Positions 9,195 to 54,972 of a DNA stretch of 58,610 bases are shown piece by piece. The stretch is from a virus (taxonomy: Duplodnaviria; Caudoviricetes). A model generated the notes under the pieces. It ran no database searches. It was given only the letters and a program-made list of their open reading frames with translations, and was not told where the DNA came from. Location of the stretch: positions 1 to 58,610 of IMG/VR virus record IMGVR_UViG_3300046007_005839. The stretch is one strand, 5' to 3'. Position 1 is the stretch's first letter. Each line of letters opens with the position of its first letter. A program made the position numbers and the translations under genes.

Positions 9195-9197
9195 AGA

Positions 9198-17315: not shown

Positions 17316-17332
17316 AGCTGTCAGGTTGCCAA
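17316..17332 (-). promoter_or_regulatory. sigma-54-type -24/-12 promoter (tail fibre)
   Basis: Minus strand TTGGCAACCTGACAGCT = GG-N10-GC. Intergenic, just downstream of a terminator. Confidence 0.65.
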
Positions 17333-19233: not shown

Positions 19234-19388
19234 TGTTATACTTTCGTTTTTGTTTGATTCATCAGGGCAACAAAAAAGCCCTGACATCTCAAACGGTTAT
19301 TGGTTAGGTCTGTCCTAGCCGTAACCGCGTAGAGAGCAGAGCTTCTAGCGGAATCTCTCTGGGAGATTCGGTCTGACATTCGTTGTTT

Positions 19389-19405
19389 TGCTAACGATAT
19401 GCCAG
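19389..19405 (-). promoter_or_regulatory. sigma-54-type -24/-12 promoter (major capsid)
   Basis: Minus strand AAGT-CTGGCATATCGTTAGCA = GG-N10-GC, intergenic between scaffold and MCP. Confidence 0.8.
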
Positions 19406-24640: not shown

Positions 24641-25182
24641 AACTTAAAGGGCCGGGGTTTTTGCGCCGCAGGCTGTTCGGATGTTGGGGATTGAGTAGGT
24701 TGTTGAGGAGCTTCTACAGTCGCCTCTACGGTTATTGGGGCCTCGATGGTGATCTCTTTAGCGGTGAGACTTTGGCCACCTAATGCGGCCCGGGCGCGCA
24801 TAGAGGCAGACGTATAGGCTTCGTTTATTTTGAGAAGCAATTCGCCCGAGCCTACGTTAAGATCAAGATGCCGCTTATGATATCCGCGCTTGGCGCCGTG
24901 GGCATACTTAGCTGCGTTTAGGCGGGCATAGACGCCGCTTTCTTCATTACGGGCTATGTCCTTGATGATGCCCATCATCTCTTTAGCTTCTTGCTCAGAG
25001 ACATCGTCGGTGATGTCGTCTTCTTTGAGAGCTTCTTTTCTCAAGGCTACACTACCGCCAGTAGCTTCTAGCGCAAGTTTTACGACCATACTATCAACCT
25101 CCAGAGCCGCACTTATTTCTTCACAACTCATCCCGGCCCTTCTTAACCCCAAAATCTGATTTCTTAACATCAAGTTACTCAT
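24637..25182 (-). CDS. terS: Terminase small subunit (putative)
   Basis: N-terminal HTH (LRRAGMSCEEISAALEV) and ARLNAAK motif. Overlaps the terL start by 4 bp. Confidence 0.65.
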   Translation of the reverse strand: MSNLMLRNQILGLRRAGMSCEEISAALEVDSMVVKLALEATGGSVALRKEALKEDDITDDVSEQEAKEMMGIIKDIARNEESGVYARLNAAKYAHGAKRGYHKRHLDLNVGSGELLLKINEAYTSASMRARAALGGQSLTAKEITIEAPITVEATVEAPQQPTQSPTSEQPAAQKPRPFKL

Positions 25183-25195: not shown

Positions 25196-25212
25196 AGCTT
25201 TTAAGATGCCAG
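25196..25212 (-). promoter_or_regulatory. sigma-54-type -24/-12 promoter (late operon/terS)
   Basis: Minus strand AAGT-CTGGCATCTTAAAAGCT = GG-N10-GC. Shares AAGTCTGGCAT with the capsid promoter. Confidence 0.8.
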
Positions 25213-25312: not shown

Positions 25313-25462
25313 GATACGTAGGAGTGTGATGCATTGAGCTGTGATGGGTAGAACATGGATGCATAGGAGTGTGATGCATTGAAGAGGGATGCATTGGAGT
25401 CTTAGGGATAGAAGTGCAAGGAATTGCGCTGTGATGCATTGCAGAGGGATGCATTGAGGTGC
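25313..25462. repeat. Degenerate 15-bp tandem array (GATGCATWG-type units)
   Basis: GATGCAT at 25328, 25358, 25373, 25388, 25433 and 25448, with degenerate units at the intervening 15-bp positions. Confidence 0.9.
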
Positions 25463-25774: not shown

Positions 25775-25816
25775 TTTTGAGAATTACAAGCGTTTTTTGA
25801 GATTTACAAGTGTTTT
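25775..25816. repeat. 20-bp direct repeat x2
   Basis: TTTTGAGAATTACAAGCGTT / TTTTGAGATTTACAAGTGTT. Confidence 0.8.
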
Positions 25817-25980: not shown

Positions 25981-26012
25981 TTAGGTTACGATTAGGTTAC
26001 GATTAGGTTACA
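25981..26012. repeat. 11-bp tandem repeat x3
   Basis: TTAGGTTACGA TTAGGTTACGA TTAGGTTACA. Confidence 0.85.
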
Positions 26013-26271: not shown

Positions 26272-26643
26272 ATGCAAAACAAAAACAACACTACCGTCAA
26301 TGTCACCGTCATTCCTTTTGTGCGCGACTTGGTTTCTTTGTGCGCGATTCACCCTGCCGATTTTGTTAGAGAGATTGGCAAGGCTGAGAGCCTCAAGGAT
26401 ACAGCCAAGGCTGTTGGTATCAGCAAAGGCTCTGCGATTGGTCCTATCGTGCGTAATAGCTTCGCCAAGGGAACGCATAAGAGTGTGATTGAAAGCGAAA
26501 CTGCCCGATGGGAAGCCTTGAGCGGAATCGCCAATGCCTTTGGAGTGCGCTTAAATTCCTTGCTGCGGGCCTGCGAAGTTCAGACTGGTAGCAGCATGCA
26601 AGAACGCCTTAACGCTCTTCCTGAGGCTCCGGCAAAGGCTTAA
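26272..26643 (+). CDS. First early gene, hypothetical (possible HTH)
   Basis: 123 aa. SLKDTAKAVGISKGSAI is HTH-like. A-rich leader. Confidence 0.65.
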   Translation: MQNKNNTTVNVTVIPFVRDLVSLCAIHPADFVREIGKAESLKDTAKAVGISKGSAIGPIVRNSFAKGTHKSVIESETARWEALSGIANAFGVRLNSLLRACEVQTGSSMQERLNALPEAPAKA

Positions 26644-26654: not shown

Positions 26655-27605
26655 TCACACTCTCCCGTGTTATGCGGGAGAGTGAACCTAGCACACACAA
26701 GCCCGGTTTAGATAATACAAAAAACCGGATTCAATAAAAGCATAGCGTGCCTTTGTGACTAACACTCCAAAGGAACGGCAATAATTCTTTAGAAGTAGCG
26801 TGAAGCTATTAAGGCAAAGTGTAAATTGCTTTAAGAGTCTAGGTAAATCGGTAGAAACGCATTTAACCTAGTAGCGGGAAAAGCTAAAGTGTTAAGAGAA
26901 ACACTAGAGAATCGGACAAAGTAGCTTTGTGGACATTGAATCCCTTTTGTTAAAGTAGGAATATTAAACCGGTTTTCTTTGTTTAATGTTAAGACCTTAA
27001 AATCAAACGCATTTACCAAAGAAACGTTAGAAGTTCAACTTACAAATTGCGGGATTTACTCGCGATTCTTCCTTGCGTGAATAGGAAAGGCTTTTGTTAG
27101 TAGTCTTTGTGAGGTTGTCTAGGTTCTACGATAGAACGAACCGATTAAATGCGGGACAACCAACCAAAGAAACGAAAACAAAAGCCCAATAGTCTTTGAG
27201 ACTAGTTTGCTTGGCTAGGCAATAGACCGGAAGCAAACTAAAAACGTGTTAGGTGCAACGCCTAATGACGGCTCTTTGCGTTAACCTTCCTTTGGTTTAA
27301 GAAACTGTCTAAAGGATTTAACATGACAGAAACGCAAAAAACAAAAGACTCTTTGTAGGTTACCATTGGTAGCTTGCCCAATGAAATAACCTCAAAAACT
27401 AAATCAAAAGCCTTGCGCTATTGCCTTGTCTTTTACAAGGAACTACAATAGGTGACTCGCAAGGCTTTTGCATTTAGTCTTTGCTTTGTAGTGTTGCGCA
27501 TTATCCACAACGCAATATCCACGTTTATAAATAACTCTATTCGAGTCTTCTCTTTCTTCAAACTATCCACACACTACAAGGCAAAGACTAGATGCAAAGT
27601 CTAGT
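26655..27605 (+). ncRNA. Candidate large structured non-coding RNA
   Basis: ~950 nt with no + strand ORF in the track, near-continuous hairpins and several long-range stems (see findings). Strand is inferred from flanking genes. Confidence 0.55.
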
Positions 27606-28981: not shown

Positions 28982-29035
28982 CTCCACAAAGCACAAGCCC
29001 TTTAAGGAGGGCTTCTTTTTGTGGAGCTTTTTTTT
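28982..29035 (+). terminator. Intrinsic terminator of the early cluster
   Basis: CTCCACAAAG..AAGCCCT-TTAAGG-AGGGCTT..TTTGTGGAG followed by T8. Confidence 0.8.
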
Positions 29036-29051: not shown

Positions 29052-29068
29052 TTGGCACTTCAAGAGCT
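29052..29068 (+). promoter_or_regulatory. sigma-54-type -24/-12 promoter
   Basis: TTGGCACTTCAAGAGCT = GG-N10-GC, just after a terminator and upstream of 29179. Confidence 0.75.
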
Positions 29069-29178: not shown

Positions 29179-29826
29179 ATGAGCACTAAGAACCTCGAAC
29201 TCGTCGCCTCCTTTGCCGGTAGCGTGTTCCAATCCGACGCCGACGGCAATCCTATCTTCGCCACGAGCGAGCGTCATGTCCGTAAGACTGCCAAGAGCGC
29301 AGAGCGCACCGTGTCGTTTCAGAAGCCCGTCTTGGCTGTGAGCGATCTCGCTTACTACATCAAGCGCGGCGAAGCTCTCGCTGAGATCCCGACCGAGCAC
29401 ATCACCAAAACCAAGAACGAAGACGGCTCGACGACCGAGACCAAGCGCATCTCGAATGCTCTCAGTGACTTGGTCGCCGATCATCTCAATGATATCGCCG
29501 AAGATGCTTCTGAGGCCTATCTCAGCAAGGGCAATACGCCCGATTACTTCGCCGCCTTTATCTACGGTGTCAGCGCCGACCGTGAGACTGAGAAGTCTGT
29601 CCTCAAGAAGATCGAGAGCATCCGCTCGGAGATAGGCTCCATTGTGTTCGCTCTCGCTGGCGAGTGGAACGACGACACTGCGCGTTCGTTGGGCGTGAGC
29701 GACAAGGACGCTGCGATCGCGAAGCAGTCCAACCTCATCGCCTCTCTGGCCCAGCTTCTCGCCAAGGCCAATGAGCTCAATGCCGCGAAGGCCAAGCGCG
29801 AGGCCAAGAAGACTGCGAAGGTGTAA
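29179..29826 (+). CDS. Hypothetical protein with Lys/Ala-rich C-terminal tail, probably highly expressed
   Basis: 215 aa with codon bias like the MCP gene. Bracketed by a promoter and a terminator. Confidence 0.8.
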   Translation: MSTKNLELVASFAGSVFQSDADGNPIFATSERHVRKTAKSAERTVSFQKPVLAVSDLAYYIKRGEALAEIPTEHITKTKNEDGSTTETKRISNALSDLVADHLNDIAEDASEAYLSKGNTPDYFAAFIYGVSADRETEKSVLKKIESIRSEIGSIVFALAGEWNDDTARSLGVSDKDAAIAKQSNLIASLAQLLAKANELNAAKAKREAKKTAKV

Positions 29827-29861
29827 TTTGTAGGAGTAATCAAAATACTCAACAAACAACA

Positions 29862-29900
29862 GAGCCTCTGTGGGAGCAATCTCACAGAGGCTTTTTCTTT
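29862..29900 (+). terminator. Intrinsic terminator
   Basis: AGCCTCTGTGGGA-GCAA-TCTCACAGAGGCT followed by TTTTCTTT. Confidence 0.85.
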
Positions 29901-29939
29901 AAGGTGTTCCAACTTTTGGCATCCCACAGGTGCCAAAAT

Positions 29940-29956
29940 TTGGCATACTTTAGGCT
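29940..29956 (+). promoter_or_regulatory. sigma-54-type -24/-12 promoter (rpoN/replication operon)
   Basis: TTGGCATACTTTAGGCT = GG-N10-GC, 34 bp before the rpoN ATG. Preceded by two more TTGGCA half-sites in alternating orientation. Confidence 0.65.
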
Positions 29957-29989: not shown

Positions 29990-31282
29990 ATGAAATTCTC
30001 TCTCTCAATAAATCAAACTCAGAGTCTTATTCTGAGTCCACAACTCCAGCAATCTCTCGCGCTTCTACAAGCTCCTCTCTGTGAGCTTCATACCCTGATG
30101 GAGTCTTTCGTCGGAGATAATCCGTGCGTTGAACTCCTTGACCGAGAGATGCCTGAAGAAGAGATCTTGTTTAGGAATGACAAAGCAGAACTTCCACAAG
30201 ACATGCAGTGGACTTCTTCTTATAACCTTCCACCCAAGGAAGAATATCCGTTGGAGAATAACCCATCGCGCGGAGAGACTCTTGAAGAATACCTTGAGAG
30301 GGAATTGACAATCGCTTCTCACGATACGAGCATCATCCATCTACTCGACGAGCGGGGATTCTACATGGGCGATCTTGATAGCCTCACAACCCCACAAAGA
30401 GATGCTTTGCGTTTTATCCGCACTCTCGAACCAAAAGGCCTAGGCGCTTTGGGATTAGCAGATTGTCTTTGTCTCCAGCTAGATGAGAACTCACTAGCCT
30501 ATCGCATTCTTCAACAAGACGAAGACTTATTCACGCGCCGTCAGATTCCTCTCTTAAGCAAAAAATACAACGAGACCTTCACGACCATAGAGAATCTTTA
30601 CAAGTCTCTAGCAAAGCTTAAATACAACCCAGCCATAGAGTTCTCTGCCCCAACGCACACGCCAAAAGATCCAGAGATCTTTCTCGACAAAGATCTCACG
30701 ATCACGATCCCGAACGAGCGATTGCCTGTCTACAAAATCAATCAAGGCTATCTAAACTATCTCGATAAGCTCTCGCCGCAAGACAGAGAATACATCCGAG
30801 AGCGCGTAAAGCAGGGGAAGTTCTTGATTCGCTCGATCATGCAGAGGCAAAGCACTTTGTTTAATGTCACAAAGGCGATTGTAGATTATCAATCTGAGTT
30901 CTTCAAAACCGGAAATATCAAGGATCTCAAGCCTCTCATCATGGCGCAGATCGCCCTCGTGTGTGAGATCCATGAGACCACTGTCTCCCGCGCGGTCCAT
31001 AACAAATACATAAGCACACCAAAAGGGACATATGAACTTCGCTTTTTCTTCACCAGCGCAATCATCAACCATGAACAAAACACCATGCAGAGTAACCTAA
31101 GCATTAAGAATCAGATCGCAGAGATCATCTCGCGAGAGGACAAGTCTCGCCCTTTGAGTGATGAAGATATCGTTGTCCTATTAAAGAACACCATCGCTCG
31201 CCGCACAATCGCCAAATACAGAGCCGAACTAGGCATTCAACCATCTCACTTAAGAAAAGTCTATGCCTCCTCTTCAAAATGA
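29990..31282 (+). CDS. rpoN: RNA polymerase sigma-54 factor (phage-encoded)
   Basis: Region I LSPQLQQSLALLQ, core-binding LDERGF and LEPKGLGA...CLCLQL, HTH IHETTVSRAVHNKY, PLSDEDI, and RpoN box ARRTIAKYR. Confidence 0.97.
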   Translation: MKFSLSINQTQSLILSPQLQQSLALLQAPLCELHTLMESFVGDNPCVELLDREMPEEEILFRNDKAELPQDMQWTSSYNLPPKEEYPLENNPSRGETLEEYLERELTIASHDTSIIHLLDERGFYMGDLDSLTTPQRDALRFIRTLEPKGLGALGLADCLCLQLDENSLAYRILQQDEDLFTRRQIPLLSKKYNETFTTIENLYKSLAKLKYNPAIEFSAPTHTPKDPEIFLDKDLTITIPNERLPVYKINQGYLNYLDKLSPQDREYIRERVKQGKFLIRSIMQRQSTLFNVTKAIVDYQSEFFKTGNIKDLKPLIMAQIALVCEIHETTVSRAVHNKYISTPKGTYELRFFFTSAIINHEQNTMQSNLSIKNQIAEIISREDKSRPLSDEDIVVLLKNTIARRTIAKYRAELGIQPSHLRKVYASSSK

Positions 31283-31940
31283 AAACGAAGAAACAATCAC
31301 GAGCGAAGCCCTCTGGGGATTGCTCTTCCCAGCCTGTGCCTGTCATGTCGATACAGAGCGAGGTCACTTCATCCGACGAACTGCAGGGAATAATCTTGCC
31401 CATGCGATTGTTGCTACAAATGAAACAGCGGAGTGGGTCAAGGCTCACTGCGCAGGTGAGCATATCCATATACAGAGAATCGACGAAGATGGTCTCAGCT
31501 ACAGCGTCATCTGGGACTCGACCGAATGGAACCTTTCCGACGAACGCAGAAGAACACTTCGTGCAAACCACCTTGCCTCTGACATATCATTCCTCCATAA
31601 AAAAGCGCAGGAACTCAGGATCGAAATGATCGCCGACGCTTTATCAAAAGCTAAGTTATTCAACAAACAAAAAGCCTTCGAAGTAGCCGCCGCGATCACA
31701 TCGCAGGGCGAAGAAGTCTATCTCAATAAATCCCGCCAGCTCAACGACGCCCTTCGCGGGGCATTCAACAATATCAACTGTTACTTTCCCATTGAAGAAG
31801 TTCTCCGTATAGTAGACACAAGAAACATCCTAACCTATGAACAAAGCCCTACAACAGAAGACAATCAAAGAATCACTGCGCTTGAGGAAGAAGATGGACG
31901 CGGCCACGAAGAAGAACGTCCTGTTGAGACAGAAACTTGA
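31263..31940 (+). CDS. Hypothetical protein
   Basis: 225-aa ORF overlapping the end of rpoN. Confidence 0.65.
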   Translation: MPPLQNENEETITSEALWGLLFPACACHVDTERGHFIRRTAGNNLAHAIVATNETAEWVKAHCAGEHIHIQRIDEDGLSYSVIWDSTEWNLSDERRRTLRANHLASDISFLHKKAQELRIEMIADALSKAKLFNKQKAFEVAAAITSQGEEVYLNKSRQLNDALRGAFNNINCYFPIEEVLRIVDTRNILTYEQSPTTEDNQRITALEEEDGRGHEEERPVETET

Positions 31941-32142
31941 AGATGAGATGCTTTCTCTCCAGAAAAAACTAACCCCACTTCTTAACAAACGCGACGCGAT
32001 CAACAAGTGCTACACGCAACTTGACAAACCCACCGCGGAGAGTATCGTGTTCGGAGAGTACATCTCTCTTATCTCCCGCACGCCACAAGCATACGGCTTC
32101 AAGAACGCCGAAGAAGTGATCGCGAAGTTGATGGACCTATAA
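31837..32142 (+). CDS. Hypothetical coiled-coil protein
   Basis: 101-aa ORF leading up to the helicase start. Confidence 0.55.
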   Translation: MNKALQQKTIKESLRLRKKMDAATKKNVLLRQKLEDEMLSLQKKLTPLLNKRDAINKCYTQLDKPTAESIVFGEYISLISRTPQAYGFKNAEEVIAKLMDL

Positions 32143-32149
32143 TAACATT

Positions 32150-34318
32150 ATGAACATATTCTCAACGCCAAGCGGAGTAAAGAAAGCTCCTGTTCAAACC
32201 GAACAATATACAAGCAAAGAGGACAGACTACAACAGACCGCCCTCACGACCGCAAGATCGCAGGCGAAGAAGCTCACTGACCTCTATCGCCGTGAGCCTT
32301 TTGAGTGGGAGTTTCTGCAGCGTGAATTGAATCTCGCCACTATCCCATCCATCAAGCTCGACTATGCCACGCTGCTGGGGTTTCTACAGGGCTGGGTTAA
32401 TCAAGCGCCCTTGCGCCAACAACGAGAAGCTATTCGCCTCGCCGAGGAGGCCGCTCTTCGAGAAAAAAGAACCTACAGCACAATCGACATCAAGCTCCCA
32501 AACGGCCTAGACTTCAAGCCCCAGCAGAAGAAAGCTATCGCGGCCTTGCTCGATGTCTTGTACAAAGACAACCTCAACGGCGCACTTGTCCCACTCGGCA
32601 CCGGCAAAGGTAAGTCATGGATCGCCGCTGGTCTCGCACTGTGGCTACAGAAGCATGATCCGCAGAAGTTCTGTAACTTTCTCGGTCTCTTTCCGCCCAT
32701 CCTAATCATCACCAAGAAGTCTGTGGTGCTAGACTTCAGAGACACTCTCAAAAAACTAGGCCTTGAATCTGTCGGACTCGCTGTCGATGTATGGTCATAC
32801 AACGAAGTCTTCTCTACGAAGAACAAGAACTTCTTTAAGGAAGAAACCACGGAGATCTTCGGTCAGTCCACAAAGGTCATTCGTTTCAATCTCCCAGAAC
32901 AAGCAGCACCAAGACTCATCATTCTCGACGAGTGTCAAGAGATCAAGAAGGAGAAGTCAAAGCGCACTAAATATCTCGAAGCATTCCTTCAGTTCCCATC
33001 TATCAAATGGGTCTTCACATCGGCCACGCCCGCGGTCACAGTATGGGACACGATGTTCATGACCCTCGCAATGGGTGTGACTTATGGCGCTCGCCATGTC
33101 TCACGGGAAACCTTTCCCGAATTTGCACGCACTCTAACTCTCGGAGCAGATCCCCGTCAAGCTAACGCGGCCGCCCTCGAACGCTGGGGCGCAGCGATTG
33201 GGGATCGCTTTGTCAAGCCGCCGGGCGATCCTCAAAAGGTCAAGGCTCTTAACAAAGTCAAACTCTTCGAGATCACCGACGAGGCCAACAAGAACATGCT
33301 CAAGAACGCGATGAAGAATTATCTTGAGGCATTGGAAAGAACAGGCCGCTCAATAGATCCACAAGGTCAAGTCATGGTCGCCTTCATGGTCATGGCCCGA
33401 GCGGCAGAGCTTGCGACCGTAGACACATGGGTCGCCGACGCAATTCATGCCCATCAAAACGGCTACGCGCCAGTCATTGCCATTCGTTTCGTCGAGACTC
33501 TGAAGGAGCTTGTGATGAAGCTCTGTGAGTCTGAGTATTTCAAGAGTAAGAACCTCACAAAACAAAAAATCTCTCTAATCTGGGGCGGCAATCGAGAGAT
33601 CAAGCCCGAAGAACTCTTGCCCGAGACACGCGCCGCAGAGATCGCTGCGAAGATGGGCATGTGGATTCTCGACAATCCAGACGAGGCCCGTAAGCCTAAA
33701 GCAGATGACATCGGCATCACGAAGGAAGAGTTCCGCTCATTCCATAAGGGCATCAAGTACACCTCGGAGAGAATCTTCCGAGAGATGACGAAGGATGCAT
33801 TCGCCGCGAGGAATGAGAAGCTTCGAGAGATGAAGCTACACAATCAGAACCAGAAAGAACGCCACGAAAACGTGCAAGACTTTCTCAACGGCGCGACTGA
33901 GTTCTGTATCTATACCTTGTCAAGCGGTGGCACAGGTATCTCGCTCGACCATCGCTACGCCCACACTCGGCCGCGTGATGTCATGAGCACGATGACTTAT
34001 TGGGCAGAGGAATTTGCACAGGCACTTGGTCGCTGCGTGCGTATCACCACACTCACCGACACACGACAGAGTATCTATGTTCCCGAAGGCACAATCCTCA
34101 GCGACCACATGGCGCCGAAGTTGGCGAGGAAACTCAAGTCAGTCGATGCCATTGGCTCATCGAACGTGGACCTTGCAGGCGAGCTAGAGAAAGCCCTGCG
34201 CGACAAGGCCACTGTGATTAAACTAACCGCCGAAGATCTTACAGCCTCCGAGTCTTCAGGCGTCGTCGAGGTGGAGGAAGAAGATGACGATGAAGAAGAA
34301 CTTGTAGAGACTAACTAA
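32150..34318 (+). CDS. Superfamily 2 helicase
   Basis: GTGKGKS (motif I), ILDECQ (II), SAT (III), SGGTGISL (V), QALGRCVR (VI), and an acidic tail. Confidence 0.9.
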   Translation: MNIFSTPSGVKKAPVQTEQYTSKEDRLQQTALTTARSQAKKLTDLYRREPFEWEFLQRELNLATIPSIKLDYATLLGFLQGWVNQAPLRQQREAIRLAEEAALREKRTYSTIDIKLPNGLDFKPQQKKAIAALLDVLYKDNLNGALVPLGTGKGKSWIAAGLALWLQKHDPQKFCNFLGLFPPILIITKKSVVLDFRDTLKKLGLESVGLAVDVWSYNEVFSTKNKNFFKEETTEIFGQSTKVIRFNLPEQAAPRLIILDECQEIKKEKSKRTKYLEAFLQFPSIKWVFTSATPAVTVWDTMFMTLAMGVTYGARHVSRETFPEFARTLTLGADPRQANAAALERWGAAIGDRFVKPPGDPQKVKALNKVKLFEITDEANKNMLKNAMKNYLEALERTGRSIDPQGQVMVAFMVMARAAELATVDTWVADAIHAHQNGYAPVIAIRFVETLKELVMKLCESEYFKSKNLTKQKISLIWGGNREIKPEELLPETRAAEIAAKMGMWILDNPDEARKPKADDIGITKEEFRSFHKGIKYTSERIFREMTKDAFAARNEKLREMKLHNQNQKERHENVQDFLNGATEFCIYTLSSGGTGISLDHRYAHTRPRDVMSTMTYWAEEFAQALGRCVRITTLTDTRQSIYVPEGTILSDHMAPKLARKLKSVDAIGSSNVDLAGELEKALRDKATVIKLTAEDLTASESSGVVEVEEEDDDEEELVETN

Positions 34319-34620
34319 AACATATGAGCTATGAATGGAAACCAACAGGTGGCCCTAAGTGCCCGGGCTGTGGCCAACTGGAAACAATAAATCAATACAA
34401 GCATATCCAATGGCGCTGTGGATCTCGATGGACTGATGACGAGAAGACAGACTTCCTACAATCAAACCGCTGTCAACGCTATGAACTCGACACCTTGCAC
34501 GCAAAGATAAAACAACTATCAGACAACATCGAATCATATCAAAAAGAAATCAAACGACAAGAAGCGTTCAAATATATACCTCCAGTCGGTATAAGATTAA
34601 AGGACTAACTAAAACATATG
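34309..34620. repeat. 18-bp direct repeats flanking a single gene
   Basis: GACTAACTAAAACATATG at 34309-34326 and at 34603-34620. Confidence 0.9.
34324..34608 (+). CDS. Hypothetical Zn-ribbon protein
   Basis: CPGC...WRCGS...C followed by a coiled coil. Confidence 0.7.
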   Translation: MSYEWKPTGGPKCPGCGQLETINQYKHIQWRCGSRWTDDEKTDFLQSNRCQRYELDTLHAKIKQLSDNIESYQKEIKRQEAFKYIPPVGIRLKD

Positions 34621-34935
34621 CCCCTAAAAAAATCAACACACATCACACGCAGCAACTATTATCTCACGCTCGAAGAGAAACTAAAGATTCGAGACTACAT
34701 CCACGCACATCCCGGCATGCCTTATCAAAAGATCGGCGATCACTTTGGGATCTCGCGGGGCACAGTATCAAACATCAACCGCATTCCTTATCATAAGGAA
34801 CACTACGAGAAGATGATCTTTCAGTTGACGAATCATAACAACATTATCTCTGCAAACATGGCGGCAATGGGTAGACAAATCATATTACTAAAAAGAAAGC
34901 TACAAGAATATGAGCAAGTTCCACCAGCGCGGTGA
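34618..34935 (+). CDS. HTH DNA-binding protein
   Basis: LTLEEKLKI...PYQKIGDHFGISRGTVSNI. Confidence 0.8.
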   Translation: MPLKKSTHITRSNYYLTLEEKLKIRDYIHAHPGMPYQKIGDHFGISRGTVSNINRIPYHKEHYEKMIFQLTNHNNIISANMAAMGRQIILLKRKLQEYEQVPPAR

Positions 34936-35092
34936 ACAATACGTTAGTAAATACAAACTCGGCTCGCTCGACGAGGAGTATCTTAACAGAGAAGAGATGG
35001 CCGCCGCGCGCAAGGCTATCATGAATTACAAACTAAAAGATCCCGGGCCGTCTTTGTATAGAAAGAAACCTAAGAATAAAAAGAAAAAATGA
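34910..35092 (+). CDS. Small basic hypothetical protein
   Basis: 60 aa. Its stop overlaps the ATG of the activator gene. Confidence 0.6.
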   Translation: MSKFHQRGEQYVSKYKLGSLDEEYLNREEMAAARKAIMNYKLKDPGPSLYRKKPKNKKKK

Positions 35093-35937
35093 ACATCCAC
35101 GCAAACGTCCTTAACACCGCAGCCGCCGACAGCTTCCTCGATAACATCCGCAAGGATGTCCTCAAGATCACAGGCGATGCGCTGAAAGATAGCAGTATCC
35201 ACAACGTCGCATCATGCTATGCCACGCAAGACCCAGCGACTAAGAGAATGCTCACGGCCGCAATAACCTACGCCGAAGAGAGCCTTCAGAAATATAACGT
35301 CTTGATTGAGGGACCTTCAGGTACGGGTAAGGAGTTAGTTGCAAAGATCCTTGCCCACAAACGCAAGCCTCTAAAGGCTATGAACATGGCTGGCTTGACT
35401 GATACACTCTTTCAAAGCGAGCTCTTTGGCTACATGCCCGGTGCATTTACCGGCGCTAAATCAAGAGGCGACGTGGGCTTTCTCCGTGCAGTCGGCAAGG
35501 GCACTGCTTTCCTCGACGAGATAGGCGAGTTGCCATTGGCACATCAAGCAAAGTTGTTGCGTGTGTTGCAGGATAAAACCGTATTGCCCGTCGGGGCTGT
35601 TGATCCTGTGCCGATTCAATGTAGGTTTGTCTTTGCGACAAACAGAGATCTCCTCAAGATGGTAAAAGAGGGGAGCTTCCGAGAGGATCTTTACTTCCGA
35701 ATCAACGAACTCGGACTGAAGACTTTCTCTCTACAACAAAGAGGTGTGCAGGAAATCCGCTGTGTCGCCTCGGCGATTATCACAGAAGAAAACTGGACAC
35801 CTCTCGGCGAAAGGGAACACTTCGGCGACGAGACATTCTCCTTTGGGAATGTACGGGCGCTGAGAAACTTGCTACTCAAACGTGAACTTGGGGAACTAGA
35901 ACTACCTGAATATGAAACCTTTAACAAACTTGACTAA
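35089..35937 (+). CDS. Sigma-54 activator (bEBP AAA+ domain only)
   Basis: GPSGTGKE, SELFGYMPGAFTGA, FLDEIGE, LLRVLQ, ATNRDL, FREDLYFRI and GNVRAL. No receiver/GAF domain and no C-terminal HTH. Confidence 0.97.
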   Translation: MNIHANVLNTAAADSFLDNIRKDVLKITGDALKDSSIHNVASCYATQDPATKRMLTAAITYAEESLQKYNVLIEGPSGTGKELVAKILAHKRKPLKAMNMAGLTDTLFQSELFGYMPGAFTGAKSRGDVGFLRAVGKGTAFLDEIGELPLAHQAKLLRVLQDKTVLPVGAVDPVPIQCRFVFATNRDLLKMVKEGSFREDLYFRINELGLKTFSLQQRGVQEIRCVASAIITEENWTPLGEREHFGDETFSFGNVRALRNLLLKRELGELELPEYETFNKLD

Positions 35938-36085
35938 AGAAAAGAGACCCGTCGCTAAGATGTTTGTAGTCAGTGATGAGACACATCGTAGGCTGAAGGA
36001 GTATGCAGTTAAGAAAGGTTACAAATTGCAGTACGTTGCGGACGAAGCAATTGCAGAATATCTAAAGAGACAGGAGGGGAAATGA
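35912..36085 (+). CDS. Ribbon-helix-helix DNA-binding protein (57 aa, not in ORF track)
   Basis: KMFVVSDETHRRLKEYAVKKGYKLQYVADEAIAEYL, translated by hand. Overlaps the activator 3' end. Confidence 0.75.
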   Translation: MKPLTNLTKEKRPVAKMFVVSDETHRRLKEYAVKKGYKLQYVADEAIAEYLKRQEGK

Positions 36086-36933: not shown

Positions 36934-37347
36934 GTGCAAATCTTCCTCCCATATCCCGACATCGAACAAAGCGCCCGCGTGCTCGACACCCAGCGCCTCA
37001 TGAAGCAGCGCGTCGAGTCTCTTCAAATCCTCAACACCCTGCAAGGTAAGTCAACTGGCTGGCGCAGTCATCCCGCTGTGCGCATGGTAAAGAACTATCC
37101 CGCTTGGCTCTGTCTATACTCCATCAAGATCTGCCAAGAAGCTCGCCGCCGGGGCTATCAAGATAATCTACTTCCTCATTTCGAGAAAGAGATCCTAACA
37201 TATCCTTACATCATCCAGCCTCATTGGCTCGGCTCTTATCTACACAAGACACATCAGAGTAATCTGATCCGCAAGAAAGCAGACTATTACAGACCACACT
37301 TTCCAAATGTCCCCGATAACCTGCCATACTTCTGGCCACCGCTATGA
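36934..37347 (+). CDS. Pyrimidine-dimer DNA glycosylase/endonuclease V-like (MSMEG_6728-type)
   Basis: MQIFLPY...LDTQRLMKQRVESLQI...GWRSHPAVRM...HQSNLIRK...PYFWP. Confidence 0.85.
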   Translation: MQIFLPYPDIEQSARVLDTQRLMKQRVESLQILNTLQGKSTGWRSHPAVRMVKNYPAWLCLYSIKICQEARRRGYQDNLLPHFEKEILTYPYIIQPHWLGSYLHKTHQSNLIRKKADYYRPHFPNVPDNLPYFWPPL

Positions 37348-40200: not shown

Positions 40201-40461
40201 ATGAGCATTGAAACTATCGCACCTGTCGCATCTAACTTACCTTTCGTAGAAAAGGAACGCATCGACATTCGACTCTGCCTCACAATCAAGCGTAACCCAC
40301 AGACGGGCGAGACTAAAGCATATGTCAATCAACTAGACCTCACTAACTATGATGGTCTTGTTGATAATGTTCCTGAGTTCCTTAACGCATTTGAATTAAG
40401 GTACGGTATAAATCAAATCATATCGGCCGCAAAGAATCATCTATCAAACGTGGCCCAATAA
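40201..40461 (+). CDS. Hypothetical protein
   Basis: 86 aa from the ATG at 40201. Confidence 0.6.
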   Translation: MSIETIAPVASNLPFVEKERIDIRLCLTIKRNPQTGETKAYVNQLDLTNYDGLVDNVPEFLNAFELRYGINQIISAAKNHLSNVAQ

Positions 40462-40514
40462 AAGCTCCCTCCCATTTGTCGGTGCTAGTAAACAAAACAA
40501 AAAACAAAACAAAA

Positions 40515-41030
40515 ATGAAAAAAGGTACTGAAGTCAAGATCGGTTTCATCCCCGCAAACGTCTATAAGGTTCTGGTCCACAAGACCGAGACTCGGCAGAG
40601 CGCAAAGGGTTTCAAGATGGTTGTCTGTGAGTGCGAGATCATTGCGCCCGAGACCACTGTGGCCGCTGGCGTGACCTATAAGACGCTGGGCGCAAAGGGC
40701 AACATGTACATCATGCTGGAGAACAAGAACGGCGTTGACTCTGCGCTGGAGATTCTTGCCGGTGCGCTGCAGACTGTCGGCCTGTATGACGGATTGCCCG
40801 ACGACTATTCCGACTTGGATGTGGCCGACGCGTTGAAGTCTCTCGAAGGTCAGGCTTTCAACATGCTCGTCCAGTCGCAGCCTGAGTATGTCACCGACGA
40901 CCCATCGAACTCCCGCGATCTCAAGTTCGCCAAGCGCGATGAGAACGGCGAGGCTATCGTCAAGCGATACAACAGCCAGTTTGACTTCTCTCAAGTCAAA
41001 GGCCCCGCGTCGCCCTTGGCCGCCTTTTAA
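40515..41030 (+). CDS. Putative single-stranded DNA-binding protein (DUF669-like)
   Basis: IPANVYKVLV...SAKGFKMV pattern, strong codon bias, C-terminal Phe, and position next to a Sak4-like gene. Confidence 0.65.
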   Translation: MKKGTEVKIGFIPANVYKVLVHKTETRQSAKGFKMVVCECEIIAPETTVAAGVTYKTLGAKGNMYIMLENKNGVDSALEILAGALQTVGLYDGLPDDYSDLDVADALKSLEGQAFNMLVQSQPEYVTDDPSNSRDLKFAKRDENGEAIVKRYNSQFDFSQVKGPASPLAAF

Positions 41031-41136: not shown

Positions 41137-41167
41137 GGCAGACCGGAAATAGTCTGCCTTTTCTTTT
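41137..41167 (+). terminator. Terminator-like hairpin 2
   Basis: GGCAGAC-N8-GTCTGCC followed by TTTTCTTTT. Confidence 0.7.
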
Positions 41168-41187: not shown

Positions 41188-42618
41188 ATGATAGCCCTCG
41201 TTCTCCATGGACCTTCGCGATTTGATAAAGAAAACAACGGTATCCTTCTCGGACCCGCCGGAGATTTTGTTCGTTCTGTGTTGGCTAATTATAATATTGA
41301 CTTGGATAATCCATCTGATCTTTTTATAACATTCGCAGATGATTTTTTCAAAGGAGCCAATAAGCCAAGCGGCATCAAGAAGATAATCTTCGCCGGGGCC
41401 AAAGCCTTAGATTATCTCCCGCTTGCGAAAGGTAAATCTCTCGATGCTTTTCGCGGCGTCGTCTATCTCTCTCCAAACAAAACACAATACATAGTAACCT
41501 ATTGGCCCCAAGATTGTGTGGACGCGTGGGCTATGGAAGATTCTTTGGAAGATGCCTTAGAAGGCGAAGACATCCTAGATAAGGATGATGGAAAAAGCAC
41601 AAGCCCCACGAAGCGCAGTAACTACTCTTTCTGGTTCGCACAAGACATCAAGAAACTCCTAACTTATGACCCCGAAAAAGTTCAACCTGAACCCCAAACC
41701 GTCATCTGTCAACGCGCCGCCGAATGCACAAGTGTCTTCGACTTCGAAGGTCCAATCTTCTTCGACATTGAGACCCATCCAAAGACCAACACACTCACCT
41801 GCTTGGCCATTGCGTGTGGCGAGAGTCCTGTCTATTCTGTTCCTGTGTATGATTGGGGCGGCAATCTTAATGTCGGTGTGGTTTTCTTTGCTCGCTTCAT
41901 TAGAGAACTAAAGAAACGCCGTGTCGTAATCCACAACGCCCTCTTCGACCTATGCTTCCTCGCCGCCTTCTACAAGATCCCTTTCGGCCATGACATCTAT
42001 GACACCATGGTCGCAGGCCATCGAATCTTTCCGGAGGCTGAGAAGTCTCTGGCCCATCAAGCCACTCTTTACAGCAACAGACCCTTCCATAAAGATGAAG
42101 CAGGAAACTTTGATCCTCGCAATCGAGCACAATTTGAGCAGCTCCGCGCTTACAACGTTAAAGACGTTATTGTCCTCCGAGAAATTTACTATGGTCAAAT
42201 TAACCTCATCCGAAACGACGCTGGACTTCAAGACTCTGTCGATCAAGCCAGTCGATCTCTCGCAGACTACGCCTTCATGTCCCTCCACGGAATGCACTTC
42301 GATCCTGTCAAGCGCGGATACATCGTACGACGCTGCGAAGAACGCTATAAGCAGTTAAATAGAATCCTCAAAATCCTCGTCGGCTTCGACCTTAATCCCG
42401 GCAGCCCGGATCAGGTCGTGAAGTATCTGCATCAGCAGTTAAGATACAAGCCCGAGAAAACAACAGACAAAGGCGCGCCGAGTGTCGCCGGGGATGCGCT
42501 TTATAAGATCAAACTCAAGCATCCGAAGAACGTCGCCATCGACGTAATCTTCGAGATGCGTCGTATGGTTAAGCTGAAAGGTATGTTAGGATTTCAACAG
42601 TGGATTTGGGAATATTAA
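41188..42618 (+). CDS. DNA polymerase A, N-terminal part (UDG-like domain, 3'-5' exonuclease, thumb)
   Basis: LHGPSRFD...LGPAG...AGAKA...RG...TYWP (UDG family-4-like), FDIET (ExoI), HNALFD (ExoII), YNVKD (ExoIII), LNPGSPDQV (thumb). Confidence 0.85.
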   Translation: MIALVLHGPSRFDKENNGILLGPAGDFVRSVLANYNIDLDNPSDLFITFADDFFKGANKPSGIKKIIFAGAKALDYLPLAKGKSLDAFRGVVYLSPNKTQYIVTYWPQDCVDAWAMEDSLEDALEGEDILDKDDGKSTSPTKRSNYSFWFAQDIKKLLTYDPEKVQPEPQTVICQRAAECTSVFDFEGPIFFDIETHPKTNTLTCLAIACGESPVYSVPVYDWGGNLNVGVVFFARFIRELKKRRVVIHNALFDLCFLAAFYKIPFGHDIYDTMVAGHRIFPEAEKSLAHQATLYSNRPFHKDEAGNFDPRNRAQFEQLRAYNVKDVIVLREIYYGQINLIRNDAGLQDSVDQASRSLADYAFMSLHGMHFDPVKRGYIVRRCEERYKQLNRILKILVGFDLNPGSPDQVVKYLHQQLRYKPEKTTDKGAPSVAGDALYKIKLKHPKNVAIDVIFEMRRMVKLKGMLGFQQWIWEY

Positions 42619-43483: not shown

Positions 43484-44026
43484 ATGTTCACAAAAAACCT
43501 ACCCAAGCATCTCTACCTAAACGTAGACACAGCTTTCACACATAAACATAAGCAAGGCTACATGCCTGCGATATGGTTCGCCATAACCTCAACGCCCGGC
43601 CGCGCATGGGGCTGTCATGTATTGCTAGAGAACGGAGCGATCTATCGCAACCTTCCGCTCCATGCGCTATACTTCGGCTCTGATATACTCCCCAGCGAAT
43701 GGCCTCTTGAACAATCTCAACGCTGGGATTGCTATGGTTGGAACTTCGAGACCATTGAGTACACTTATCTTCGCAGCCAGCGTTGTATGGCTAATTGCGA
43801 TGGTGACTATTATCACGGCGACTATCTCTTCACCGCCGCGCCCTTCGACGACGGCTTCAGTGACGATCCCGAGCAAAACAAAGAGTTCCTCTTTATCAAG
43901 CTCGACAACGGGCGCATCACCGCACAGCCCACGAATAAAGTCATGATCCTCGACGATAGCTTTCACAAAGCTATGGACTGGCCATCGGATCTGAAAGTCT
44001 CTAAAGAGGTTTATTCTTGCGAATAA
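43484..44026 (+). CDS. Conserved phage hypothetical protein
   Basis: 180 aa with GAIYRNLPLHAL...QRWDC...LDNGRITAQPTN. Confidence 0.8.
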   Translation: MFTKNLPKHLYLNVDTAFTHKHKQGYMPAIWFAITSTPGRAWGCHVLLENGAIYRNLPLHALYFGSDILPSEWPLEQSQRWDCYGWNFETIEYTYLRSQRCMANCDGDYYHGDYLFTAAPFDDGFSDDPEQNKEFLFIKLDNGRITAQPTNKVMILDDSFHKAMDWPSDLKVSKEVYSCE

Positions 44027-44028
44027 CT

Positions 44029-51820: not shown

Positions 51821-51825
51821 ATAAA

Positions 51826-53061: not shown

Positions 53062-53066
53062 AATAT

Positions 53067-53399
53067 TTATTCTACAAAGTTCTCACCAGCACTTGTCACA
53101 GCGCCAGTATGTTTCTGAATGTTTACGAAAATTAAAGGAAGGTTGTCGTTTTGTAGCCAGTGTCTTTCGCCCTTGCGAATATTATAAAGTCTGAAATCAA
53201 AGAAAGGCCACATCTTGGTGATGTGACCTTTGTTGATTACTCCTTTTCCAAAGAGCTTAAAGAACTTACCATCAAAGTCGTGATGATGTGGCGGGACAAA
53301 TGTCAGTGCGGGTAAATGCCAGAGTTCCACGGCCCAGCGGCCAACCTTAAGTTGAACACCGCGGCAGGAACGCCAGCGCGTTCGCCGTAGTAATCCCAC
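53067..53399 (-). CDS. Cupin-like small protein, variant B
   Basis: Homologue of 3763-4095. Confidence 0.5.
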   Translation of the reverse strand: MGLLRRTRWRSCRGVQLKVGRWAVELWHLPALTFVPPHHHDFDGKFFKLFGKGVINKGHITKMWPFFDFRLYNIRKGERHWLQNDNLPLIFVNIQKHTGAVTSAGENFVE

Positions 53400-54610: not shown

Positions 54611-54972
54611 TGTTTTACGAAGTCTGAAATTCTATACTGCACATTCTTCTTACTCTTGCGCCGCGCACCGCTCACAGTCCAGCCGGGATAAAGTGCATTC
54701 CACGCCCCGACGGCTTGGAATAAAGAGCCATGGTCGCCAAGAATATTCAGAATGTGTATGTTCTTACGTTCACTATCAAGCTCGCACCATAGTACGATCA
54801 AAGGGGTTTCGTTCTCTTTCTCAAGAACAAACAACTCATTGTTTTCATTCTTAAGAATCCGATCACAATGCATGACGATGTCAACGTCGGAAGCTTTTCC
54901 GAAACAACTCTCGCGCCCGGGATGCTGCAAGACCCATTCGAAAAGCTTTACGGCGTTGATAGCGCAACTCAT
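54607..54972 (-). CDS. Hypothetical protein, variant B
   Basis: 121-aa homologue of 5303-5668. Confidence 0.6.
   Translation of the reverse strand: MSCAINAVKLFEWVLQHPGRESCFGKASDVDIVMHCDRILKNENNELFVLEKENETPLIVLWCELDSERKNIHILNILGDHGSLFQAVGAWNALYPGWTVSGARRKSKKNVQYRISDFVKQ

What the first reader, a model, noticed from the sequence alone, without database searches (positions are those of the whole stretch)
29990..35937. Phage-encoded complete sigma-54 transcription system: its own RpoN plus its own GAFTGA activator
Seen: an intact 430-aa RpoN (region I, core-binding domain, HTH, RpoN box ARRTIAKYR) and, ~3.8 kb downstream in the same gene run, an AAA+ protein with all bEBP motifs including GAFTGA. 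Both sit among phage replication genes with no host-like flanks, and no phage RNA polymerase is recognisable. Established: sigma-54 holoenzyme cannot melt promoters without an ATP-hydrolysing bEBP. Characterised phage transcription programmes use sigma-70-type factors (T4 gp55, SPO1 gp28/gp34), single-subunit RNAPs (T7) or antitermination. Inference: this phage redirects host core RNAP with a sigma-54/activator pair to drive its middle and late genes. I do not know of a characterised phage with this architecture, but that needs a literature check.
Basis: partly seen in the sequence, partly recalled or inferred. Interest (0 to 1): 0.95.

Follow-up and report, generated by a model that had tools for sequence, protein, structure and literature searches.

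The report
Lake phage with its own sigma-54
An abundant uncultured lake phage carries a complete sigma-54 gene and a stripped-down activator ATPase, with matching promoters in front of its own genes, so a virus appears to run this unusual bacterial transcription system itself.

Summary
ORF 29990-31282 is a full-length sigma-54 (RpoN): all three Pfam domains score over cut-off, and so does TIGR02395. ORF 35089-35937 is a sigma-54 activator (bEBP) with GAFTGA, but it is only an AAA+ domain, with no sensor and no DNA-binding domain. The window is a whole phage record of about 49 kb, assembled as a two-variant concatemer. All 21 related viral loci carry both genes, both are under strong purifying selection, and 24 lake-water runs hold the stretch, so misassembly is excluded.

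Six conserved -24/-12 elements with GG-N10-GC spacing lie before the packaging, capsid and tail-fibre genes, before rpoN itself, and before two other genes.

Two relatives change the reading. A distant family member (G006) also has both genes, with rpoN at another locus. A complete intermediate relative (G011) keeps the bEBP and the promoters but has no rpoN. So the activator plus the promoters are the family's core, and rpoN is an add-on. The phage's A-GCT -12 variant does not depend on a phage-encoded sigma.

The nearest cellular RpoNs are verrucomicrobial, at 31-41% identity. Ten literature searches found no virus-encoded sigma-54. The scan's own unchecked notes describe bEBP-only phages elsewhere, but not this lineage or a phage RpoN.

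The parts
29990..31282 (+). rpoN: full-length sigma-54, 430 aa (region I/AID, core-binding domain, HTH, RpoN box at residues 403-411)
   Evidence: dN/dS 0.09-0.13. 75-98% identical copies in 21 viral loci.
35089..35937 (+). Minimal bEBP: AAA+ sigma-54 interaction domain only, 282 aa, GAFTGA at residues 118-123. No receiver and no HTH.
   Evidence: 91-99% identical in 21 of 21 loci. 43% identical in G006 and 61% in G011. dN/dS 0.04-0.06.
29941..29956 (+). Site C: -24/-12 element TGGCATACTTTAGGCT, ending 33 nt before the rpoN ATG. Heads the run rpoN ... helicase ... bEBP.
   Evidence: GG-N10-GC kept in 19 of 19 anchored rows. An equivalent element sits in the empty rpoN slot of G011.
29861..29894 (+). 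Intrinsic terminator hairpin (15 pairs plus a T run) that insulates the rpoN operon from upstream transcription
   Evidence: Conserved with compensatory changes in the alignment. An equivalent hairpin is present in G011.
29916..29945 (+). Three TTGGCA/TGCCAA boxes. The TGCCAA-N3-TTGGCA palindrome overlaps the -24 box of site C.
   Evidence: The proximal palindrome is kept in 19 of 19 rows and the distal half-site only in some. Function unknown.
29053..29068 (+). Site B: -24/-12 element TGGCACTTCAAGAGCT upstream of gene 29179-29826, directly after the terminator at 28995-29014
   Evidence: Kept in 17 of 17 rows. G011 equivalent.
25196..25211 (-). Site A: late promoter TGGCATCTTAAAAGCT. The ATG of the first gene of the packaging and structural module (24637-25182) follows the GC by 14 nt, a leaderless geometry.
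   Evidence: GG-N10-GC is kept in 10 of 10 rows with very variable spacers (the script located 8 of 10). G006 has GGCAC-N5-CTGCA plus 12 nt then ATG. G011 has TGGCAT-N5-TTGCA plus 12 nt then ATG.
19389..19404 (-). Site F: TGGCATATCGTTAGCA upstream of the major capsid homologue (17935-19287)
   Evidence: Kept in 4 of 4 rows. Equivalent elements lie before the capsid gene in G006 and G011. It overlaps an imperfect hairpin, so its reading as a promoter is less sure.
17316..17331 (-). Site G: TGGCAACCTGACAGCT, with 14 nt between its GC and the tail-fibre ATG (15722-17302)
   Evidence: Kept in 4 of 4 rows. The spacer varies while the flanks are kept.
40451..40466 (+). Site E: TGGCCCAATAAAAGCT upstream of gene 40476-41030 and the polymerase genes
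   Evidence: Kept in 11 of 11 rows. G011 equivalent.
32150..34318 (+). SNF2/DEAD-type helicase between rpoN and the bEBP. It stays adjacent to the bEBP in G006 and G011.
34618..34935 (+). 105-aa HTH protein with a sigma-70 region-4-like match below cut-off. A fast-evolving possible regulator that is not kept at family depth.
   Evidence: 46-58% identical in G001, G004 and G005, and absent from G006 and G011.
25325..25458 (.). 15-bp-period array of ATGCAT palindromes, about 110-260 bp upstream of late promoter A. Could be an enhancer, an origin or a pac site.
   Evidence: G006 and G011 have other AT-rich repeats at the same place.

Best explanation
This is a family of about 50-kb tailed lake phages, probably infecting Verrucomicrobiota.

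Its middle genes (replication and regulation) and late genes (packaging, capsid, tail fibre) sit behind sigma-54-type -24/-12 promoters. A phage-encoded AAA+-only activator acts on sigma-54 holoenzyme from solution, with no enhancer binding and no sensor domain. Timing is therefore set by when the activator is made.

The window's lineage also carries its own full-length sigma-54. This most likely loads host core RNA polymerase onto the same promoters. It would supplement or replace the scarce host sigma-54, and it would make late transcription independent of the host's rpoN level.

rpoN and the activator lie behind a terminator plus one of these promoters, so the pair forms a positive-feedback switch once a little of each is made.

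Shown here: gene identity, integrity, co-occurrence, purifying selection, and conserved promoter-like elements with fixed geometry.

Inferred: binding to host core, promoter use by the phage sigma, activation by the phage ATPase, and timing.
For: - Family membership of both proteins is over curated cut-offs, with end-to-end alignment to solved sigma-54 and bEBP AAA+ domains.
- Both genes occur in 21 of 21 lineage loci, 3.5-4.6 kb apart, in 5 of 5 near-complete relatives, and in the distant syntenic G006 (RpoN 33%, bEBP 43%, 22 shared proteins).
- dN/dS is 0.09-0.13 for rpoN and 0.04-0.06 for the bEBP.
- At six sites the xGGC and GC+T columns are 100% conserved, while spacers and flanks average 77%. 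Rows keeping GG-N10-GC: A 10 of 10, B 17 of 17, C 19 of 19, E 11 of 11, F 4 of 4, G 4 of 4.
- All six sites are co-oriented with the downstream genes. Two follow strong terminators. At A and G the ATG follows the GC by 14-15 nt. The same geometry, 12 nt, holds at the late promoters of G006 and G011.
- A sigma-70 reading does not fit. Sites A, B and E have no -10 hexamer at a usable spacing (sequences).
- No phage RNAP is recognisable.
- rpoN autoregulation from sigma-54 promoters is reported for Verrucomicrobiia and Planctomycetia (PMC12316311, passages read).
Against: - There are no expression data. No RNA run holds the stretch.
- The genome-wide count of the loose pattern is not enriched: TGGCAC-N5-TTGC with up to 2 mismatches gave 40 against 57 expected, and TGGC-N9-GCT gave 13 against 9.4. 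The case for the promoters rests on position and conservation.
- G011, a complete relative, has the bEBP and the same promoters but no rpoN. So the phage sigma is dispensable for this promoter set in at least one lineage, and its specific role here is unproven.
- Most -12 elements read A/G-GCT. The six host-type candidates upstream of verrucomicrobial rpoN read yTGCT (6 of 23 loci).
- How the first activator is made is unexplained. No conserved sigma-70 promoter was found inside the operon.
- Site F overlaps a hairpin, and site D (39317) is inside a coding region.
- The host is inferred only from quick trees of RpoN and from habitat.
- A cryptic polymerase among the unannotated giant proteins cannot be excluded by sequence.
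Confidence: 0.6

Rival explanations
1. Host sigma-54 does the promoter reading, and the phage RpoN is mainly a take-over tool. It competes with sigma-70 for host core RNA polymerase and parks it in silent closed complexes. This shuts down host transcription, and only promoters served by the phage activator fire.
For: - G011 shows that the promoters work, or at least persist, without a phage sigma.
- Sigma-54 holoenzyme is transcriptionally silent without a bEBP (established knowledge; also stated in the abstracts listed).
- The core-binding domain is intact.
Against: - This is not exclusive of the main explanation.
- The DNA-binding domain and RpoN box are as well conserved as the core-binding domain, and dN/dS is low over the whole gene. 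A pure core-sequestering decoy would not need this.
- No shut-off data exist.
Confidence: 0.15
2. A private, orthogonal pair. The phage sigma-54 has a changed -12 specificity (A/G-GCT instead of TTGCW) and responds only to the phage activator. Phage promoters would then be invisible to the host holoenzyme, and host promoters invisible to the phage one.
For: - Most phage -12 elements carry A or G at -14. Six host-type candidates upstream of verrucomicrobial rpoN carry T.
- The phage RpoN is at most about 41% identical to any cellular RpoN sampled.
- Paralogue-specific sigma-54/activator pairs are known in Cereibacter sphaeroides (recalled; one abstract listed).
Against: - G011, which has no rpoN, carries the same A-GCT type at the B, C, E and F equivalents.
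- Some lineage members have TGCT at site A, and G006 has CTGCA.
- The RpoN box is canonical.
Confidence: 0.1
3. The two genes are host-derived cargo ('morons') that reprogramme the host's sigma-54 regulon, for example motility, envelope or nitrogen genes, and do not transcribe phage genes.
For: - The genes are of cellular, probably verrucomicrobial, ancestry.
- An activator without DNA binding could act on any sigma-54 promoter in the cell.
- The preprint on phage protein Htm proposes host reprogramming by a bEBP-like protein (10.64898/2026.10.06.757011, passages read).
Against: - Conserved -24/-12 elements lie in front of phage genes, including rpoN itself.
- The genes sit inside the replication module behind phage terminators.
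- The bEBP is kept across the whole family at 43-99% identity.
Confidence: 0.08
4. Artefact: host DNA misassembled into a viral contig, or a bacterial contig misfiled as viral.
For: - The window itself is a chimeric concatemer of two variants.
- In GenBank 'phage' records, the RpoN and bEBP matches look like host DNA.
Against: - 21 independent viral contigs have the same gene order.
- 24 runs from 24 studies hold the stretch (three may be the source).
- Flanks on both sides are phage genes.
- The duplicated part (1-9317 and 49280-58600) does not touch the finding.
Confidence: 0.01

Closest known systems
Bacterial sigma-54 / bEBP transcription (for example E. coli sigma-54 with PspF, Aquifex NtrC1)
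   Same: Sigma-54 has the same three-domain architecture, aligning end to end with E. coli sigma-54. The AAA+ module has the same GAFTGA, Walker A/B and sensor II motifs. The promoter geometry is the same GG-N10-GC.
   Different: Both proteins are encoded by a virus. The activator has neither an enhancer-binding HTH nor a sensor domain. The -12 element is mostly A/G-GCT. Several promoters place the start codon 12-15 nt after the GC, which implies leaderless mRNA.
bEBPs that lack a DNA-binding domain and act from solution: Helicobacter pylori FlgR, Chlamydia CtcC, Rhodobacter FleT (recalled from memory, not from a call)
   Same: An AAA+ activator without a C-terminal HTH, expected to contact the holoenzyme directly.
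   Different: FlgR and CtcC keep a receiver domain and are controlled by phosphorylation. The phage protein has only about 45-65 residues before the AAA+ core, so it is presumably constitutively active.
Phage-encoded sigma factors of the sigma-70 family: T4 gp55, SPO1 gp28 and gp33/34 (recalled; T4 late transcription review listed)
   Same: A phage supplies a sigma that redirects host core RNAP to phage middle or late promoters.
   Different: Those belong to the sigma-70 family and need no ATP-driven activator. This one is a sigma-54, with no sigma-70 domain, and the PHROGs library has no family for it.
Pseudomonas phage YuA
   Same: [quoted passage not shown] 2008).
   Different: In that passage YuA depends on host sigma factors, and no phage-encoded RpoN or bEBP is mentioned.
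Htm (Gp204 of Mosigvirus AV110), a phage bEBP-like AAA+ protein (bioRxiv 10.64898/2026.10.06.757011, passages read)
   Same: [quoted passage not shown]
   Different: Htm lacks the GAFTGA loop and has a changed Walker B motif. It is proposed to alter host genes, and no phage sigma-54 is involved.
Extra rpoN copies on mobile elements or as paralogues with their own activators: Mesorhizobium loti ICE rpoN2, Ralstonia megaplasmid rpoN2, Cereibacter sphaeroides RpoN1-4 (abstracts listed; details recalled)
   Same: A second sigma-54 dedicated to a subset of promoters and activators, sometimes carried on a mobile element.
   Different: Those are cellular replicons or integrative elements, not a lytic-type phage genome. 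Their activators are full-length bEBPs.

Membership tests
Sigma-54 (RpoN) family | N-terminal region I / activator-interacting domain | tested here: met
   PF00309, 45.5 bits against cut-off 23.8, residues 4-49. L..Q..L..LQ pattern kept in the alignment.
Sigma-54 (RpoN) family | Core RNAP-binding domain | tested here: met
   PF04963, 70.4 bits against cut-off 22.9, residues 89-254, covering profile positions 3-185 of 185.
Sigma-54 (RpoN) family | DNA-binding domain with HTH and RpoN box (ARRTVAKYR-type) | tested here: met
   PF04552, 164.2 bits. ARRTIAKYR at residues 403-411 lies in invariant columns.
Sigma-54 (RpoN) family | Full-length equivalog score | tested here: met
   TIGR02395, 290.9 against cut-off 277.35, profile 1-434 of 434. 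The narrower NF00459x models are far below their cut-offs, so this is a divergent member.
Sigma-54 (RpoN) family | Forms holoenzyme with core RNAP and binds -24/-12 promoters as a closed complex | not testable with these tools
   Only indirect evidence: conserved GG-N10-GC elements before phage genes.
Bacterial enhancer-binding proteins (bEBP, NtrC family) | AAA+ sigma-54 interaction domain | tested here: met
   PF00158, E 2e-49, 167.9 bits against cut-off 20.2. Aligned to 33 solved bEBP AAA+ sequences.
Bacterial enhancer-binding proteins (bEBP, NtrC family) | GAFTGA loop that contacts sigma-54 region I | tested here: met
   GAFTGA at residues 118-123.
Bacterial enhancer-binding proteins (bEBP, NtrC family) | Walker A, Walker B and sensor II for ATP hydrolysis | tested here: met
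   GPSGTGKE 75-82, FLDE 141-144, GNVRALRN 253-260.
Bacterial enhancer-binding proteins (bEBP, NtrC family) | C-terminal helix-turn-helix that binds upstream enhancer sites | tested here: not met
   No HTH_8 or other DNA-binding Pfam hit. Only 22 residues follow sensor II. It therefore belongs with the DNA-binding-less subclass.
Bacterial enhancer-binding proteins (bEBP, NtrC family) | N-terminal regulatory or sensor domain | tested here: not met
   No receiver, GAF, PAS or V4R hit. The PF00158 match begins at residue 49.
Bacterial enhancer-binding proteins (bEBP, NtrC family) | ATP-dependent remodelling of the sigma-54 closed complex | not testable with these tools
   Needs biochemistry.
Phage-encoded late sigma factors (sigma-70 family: T4 gp55, SPO1 gp28/gp34) | Sigma-70 region 2 and/or region 4 homology | tested here: not met
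   The RpoN ORF has only sigma-54 domains. It works like a phage sigma but is not a member of that family.

The most novel reading that the evidence does not exclude
This would be the first virus-encoded sigma-54. Phages whose gene programme already runs on sigma-54 promoters plus a minimal, enhancer-independent activator have captured the host's rpoN, possibly more than once, since it sits at different loci in two lineages and is absent from a lineage between them. The result is a self-contained module of two proteins plus promoters. It takes over host core RNA polymerase and switches itself on by positive feedback. It could serve as a compact orthogonal expression system.
Probability: 0.45. 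Interest if true: 0.9.

Novelty: new variant of a known kind. Interest (0 to 1): 0.8.

Why it matters
- All characterised phage sigma factors belong to the sigma-70 family. Sigma-54, the only bacterial sigma that needs an ATP-driven activator, has been treated as a purely cellular device. A virus that encodes it, together with a bare AAA+ activator, would add a new way of timing viral genes and of capturing host polymerase.
- The family offers a natural comparison. Lineages with rpoN at two different loci can be set against a complete relative without it. This makes the question 'what does owning the sigma add?' directly testable.
- The lineage is abundant in lakes: the 120 best RpoN clusters are all at least 73% identical, and 24 runs hold the stretch. 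It probably infects Verrucomicrobiota, for which few phages are characterised (recalled from my own knowledge, not checked here).
- A sigma, an activator and a 16-bp promoter that need no enhancer and no signal would also make a compact orthogonal expression switch.

Tried and rejected
- Canonical promoter scan. TGGCAC-N5-TTGC with up to 2 mismatches gave 40 hits against 57 expected. TGGC-N9-GCT gave 13 against 9.4. There is no genome-wide enrichment, so I moved to positional and comparative evidence.
- Sigma-70 reading of the TTGGCA boxes. Rejected, because no -10 hexamer lies at a usable spacing at sites A, B and E.
- Internal sigma-70 promoter at 32021-32048 as the source of the first bEBP. 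It is kept in 19 of 20 lineage rows, but it lies in coding sequence and is absent from G011 and G006. Not supported.
- RHH ORF 35912-36085 as the missing DNA-binding partner of the bEBP. The Pfam hit is weak and below cut-off. The ORF was found in only 2 of the 21 related sources plus G006 that I searched. Rejected as an obligate partner.
- HTH ORF 34618-34935. Evolves fast and is absent from G006 and G011.
- Physical genome ends next to the bEBP. The 127- and 123-nt 'terminal repeats' of G001 and G006 look like assembler overlaps (my inference from their lengths). Dropped.
- GenBank phages. There were 15 records with RpoN matches and 62 with bEBP matches, all under 60% identity and none covering 80% of the query, in records with host-type annotation or none. 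I judged them host DNA without inspecting each record.
- Other viral RpoN loci. Of the 10 outlier loci, L055, L056 and L060 are the G006 lineage. L057, L058, L061 and L064 have cell-like neighbours (HAD, DUF3592, PAP2). L059, L062 and L063 remain unresolved and have no PF00158 match.
P0121 was not found in viral contigs, and the listing of cluster members gave only an 8.2-kb unnamed contig.
- Expression. No RNA holder was listed, and read laying was not used.
- Host by DNA matches. A 24-nt match in G016 and a 31-nt match in G028 are not in CRISPR arrays. The first lies in coding sequence and the second is a look-alike terminator. The other 15 of the 16 genomes with matches matched within the rpoN and bEBP genes. 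No independent host evidence was obtained.
- Trees. The careful search did not finish, so only quick trees are reported. In one search my longest-ORF picking put six rows on a spurious long branch. For one search I kept 33 of the 80 bacterial rows (PVC groups plus a few outgroups), and for I kept 19.
- AU test. p = 0.32, so a single phage clade is not rejected.
- Rfam: no hit in the window. tRNAs: none.
- Complex prediction, structure prediction, fold search and the protein-atlas search were not used. A sigma-54/bEBP pair would pass by likeness to solved complexes and would not have changed my odds.
- Supplementary tables of PMC12316311, which hold class-specific promoter matrices that may include Verrucomicrobiota, were not opened.

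Full report
WHAT IS THERE

The window is one whole IMG/VR virus record, with CheckV completeness of 100%. Its first 9,317 bases repeat its last 9,321 at 81% identity. The true genome is therefore about 49.3 kb, and the record is a concatemer of two variants. The finding lies in the unique part.

Genes run leftward from about 25.2 kb. These are the packaging and virion genes, including a tail fibre and a capsid homologue. Genes run rightward from about 27.4 kb to 47 kb. These are small early genes, then regulation and replication genes: helicase, PD-(D/E)XK exonuclease, Sak4, a split family-A polymerase, ligase and primase.

THE TWO GENES

ORF 29990-31282 is a full-length sigma-54.
- The AID, CBD and DBD domains are all over Pfam cut-offs.
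- TIGR02395 scores 290.9 against a cut-off of 277.35.
- It aligns end to end with E. coli sigma-54.
- Every family-invariant residue of region I, the HTH and the RpoN box is kept.

ORF 35089-35937 is a sigma-54 activator. PF00158 matches at E 2e-49, and Walker A, GAFTGA, Walker B and sensor II are all present. It is only the AAA+ module. About 45-65 residues precede it and 22 follow it, and there is no receiver, GAF or HTH domain. It should therefore work from solution and be active as soon as it is made.

NOT AN ARTEFACT

- RpoN copies at 75-98% identity lie on 21 other viral contigs. In 21 of 21 the bEBP follows 3.5-4.6 kb downstream.
- 5 of 5 near-complete relatives have both genes.
- The 120 best database RpoN clusters are all at least 73% identical and sit on contigs of 74 kb or less.
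- 24 lake- or fresh-water runs from 24 studies hold part of the stretch, 12 of them at least half the sampled words. Three may be the source, and none is RNA.
- Both genes are under strong purifying selection. dN/dS is 0.09-0.13 for rpoN and 0.04-0.06 for the bEBP, with dS near saturation.
- The bEBP is the best-conserved protein of the block: 94-96% identical where RpoN is 78-90% and the neighbouring HTH protein is 46-58%.

PROMOTERS

The loose canonical pattern is not enriched genome-wide. Six co-oriented elements stand out all the same:
- A at 25211-25196 (-), before the first packaging gene.
- F at 19404-19389 (-), before the capsid homologue.
- G at 17331-17316 (-), before the tail fibre.
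- B at 29053-29068 (+).
- C at 29941-29956 (+), ending 33 nt before rpoN.
- E at 40451-40466 (+).

All six have exact GG-N10-GC spacing and read yTGGCAY-N5-6-(A/G/T)GCT.

Anchoring on the downstream gene starts in all related sequences gives these counts of rows keeping the core: A 10 of 10, B 17 of 17, C 19 of 19, E 11 of 11, F 4 of 4, G 4 of 4. The xGGC and GC+T columns are 100% conserved, while spacers and upstream flanks average 77%. At site A the spacer differs almost completely between relatives.

Sites B and C each follow a strong intrinsic terminator. The one before C shows compensatory changes in its stem.

At A and G the start codon follows the GC by 14-15 nt. Sigma-54 would then start transcription at or next to the ATG, giving leaderless mRNA.

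A seventh match, D at 39317, lies inside a coding region, and I do not count it.

TWO RELATIVES THAT CHANGE THE READING

G006 is a complete 52-kb phage. It shares 22 proteins with the window at 23-49% identity, in the same order. It has a 488-aa RpoN (33% identical) and a 282-aa bEBP (43% identical). Its rpoN sits between Sak4 and the polymerase genes, not upstream of the helicase. Its late promoter reads GGCAC-N5-CTGCA followed 12 nt later by ATG. A TGGCATA-N6-AGCA element precedes its capsid gene.

G011 is a complete 49.8-kb relative found through the capsid protein, which is 73% identical. It has the bEBP (61% identical) but no rpoN.
- PF04552 finds nothing in six frames.
- tblastn with both phage RpoNs gives nothing better than E 0.7.
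- The homologues of the two genes that flank rpoN in the window lie 146 nt apart.
- That gap still holds a terminator and TGGCACAAGCTAAGCT.
- The B, E and F equivalents are present with the same A-GCT type of -12 element.
- The late promoter is a textbook TGGCAT-N5-TTGCA plus 12 nt to the ATG.

G012 also lacks a match, but its contig ends before the place where rpoN would lie, so it says nothing.

WHAT FOLLOWS

The activator and the -24/-12 promoters are the family's common core. rpoN is an addition present in some lineages.

The A-GCT flavour does not need a phage sigma. This weakens the idea of a private promoter specificity, even though six candidate host promoters upstream of verrucomicrobial rpoN (6 of 23 loci) read yTGCT.

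The phage sigma therefore most likely adds supply, or independence from the host's sigma-54. It may also compete with sigma-70 for core.

rpoN and the bEBP both lie behind site C, so the pair should feed back on itself. rpoN autoregulation from sigma-54 promoters is reported for Verrucomicrobiia and Planctomycetia (PMC12316311, passages).

How the first activator is made is open. The one good sigma-70-like match inside the operon is not kept in G011 or G006. Terminator leak is my guess.

ORIGIN AND HOST

Outside its own clade, the next RpoN in 1.84 billion representatives is 44% identical (P0121, context unknown). The rest are 45% or lower.

Only quick trees are available, because the careful search did not finish.
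- The window's clade plus P0121 sits on a long branch inside Verrucomicrobiota plus Kiritimatiellota (SH-aLRT 99), next to Opitutia (86).
- G006's RpoN sits elsewhere, with an Akkermansiaceae-labelled MAG (94-98).
- An AU test does not reject a single phage clade (p 0.32).

One capture followed by a move and a loss, or two captures, are equally parsimonious.

DNA searches of 5 and then 401 verrucomicrobial genomes gave no CRISPR-type match. The host call therefore rests on the RpoN phylogeny and the lake habitat only.

COMPARISON WITH WHAT IS KNOWN

Ten full-text searches found no virus-encoded sigma-54. The library lacks most subscription journals.
- PHROGs has no family that matches the RpoN. 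The bEBP matches phrog_7998, of unknown function.
- Phage YuA is reported to depend on sigma-70 and sigma-54 and has a sigma-54-like promoter (PMC10914365, passage).
- Htm of a T4-like phage is a bEBP-like protein without GAFTGA (preprint, passages).
- Known phage sigmas are of the sigma-70 family (recalled).
- DNA-binding-less bEBPs such as FlgR, CtcC and FleT are the nearest cellular analogues of the activator (recalled).
- The scan's own unchecked notes describe other uncultured phages with minimal bEBPs and sigma-54-type promoters, but no phage RpoN. By sequence, they have not met this lineage elsewhere.

VERDICT

This is very probably a working phage sigma-54 module, but the sigma is an optional addition to an activator-plus-promoter strategy, the activator is a bare AAA+ domain, and nothing has been shown at the RNA or protein level. 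I rate it a new variant of a known kind, with interest 0.8.

Noticed in passing
window 1-9317 and 49280-58600: The two ends of the record are 81% identical copies of the same tail and ejection module, so the record is a concatemer of two co-occurring variants. The true genome is about 49.3 kb, in line with relatives of 49.3-50.7 kb.
   Followed up: partly
window 26655-27605: About 950 nt between an early ORF (26272-26643) and the small early genes has no ORF of 60 aa or more on the + strand. Rfam has no match anywhere in the window.
   Followed up: partly
window 25325-25458: A 15-bp-period array of ATGCAT palindromes lies about 110-260 bp upstream of the late promoter. G006 and G011 have different AT-rich repeat arrays at the same place. 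It could be an enhancer, a replication origin or a packaging site.
   Followed up: partly
window 25981-26011 and 25775-25816: Two more short tandem repeats in the divergent control region: TTAGGTTACGA x2.8 with 100% matches, and a 20-nt unit x2.1.
   Followed up: no
window 41188-42618 and 44017-45021: The family-A DNA polymerase is split into two genes, with a ligase and another gene between them. The same split is seen in G006 and G011.
   Followed up: partly
window 25182, 17302; L068 about 1232 (-); G011 about 40633: Late genes begin 12-15 nt after the -12 GC, which implies leaderless or near-leaderless mRNAs. This geometry is kept across the family.
   Followed up: partly
window 41137-41158 and L175 653-683: A phage terminator hairpin matches 30 of 31 nt of a terminator-like hairpin in a verrucomicrobial genome (G028). 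It is not a CRISPR spacer. It may be chance or a shared terminator.
   Followed up: yes
window 47006-51820 (-): A 1604-aa protein has no Pfam, PHROG or PDB sequence match and is conserved in G006 (27%) and G011 (37%). It is probably an ejection or tail protein, but it is unannotated.
   Followed up: partly
P0121 (no locus): A 431-aa RpoN, 44% identical, is the strongly supported sister of the window's RpoN clade in both quick trees. It sits on an 8.2-kb contig of unknown context and may mark a further phage lineage.
   Followed up: partly
window 36934-37347: A pyrimidine-dimer DNA glycosylase (PF03013, E 1.7e-24) is encoded just downstream of the bEBP block.
   Followed up: no
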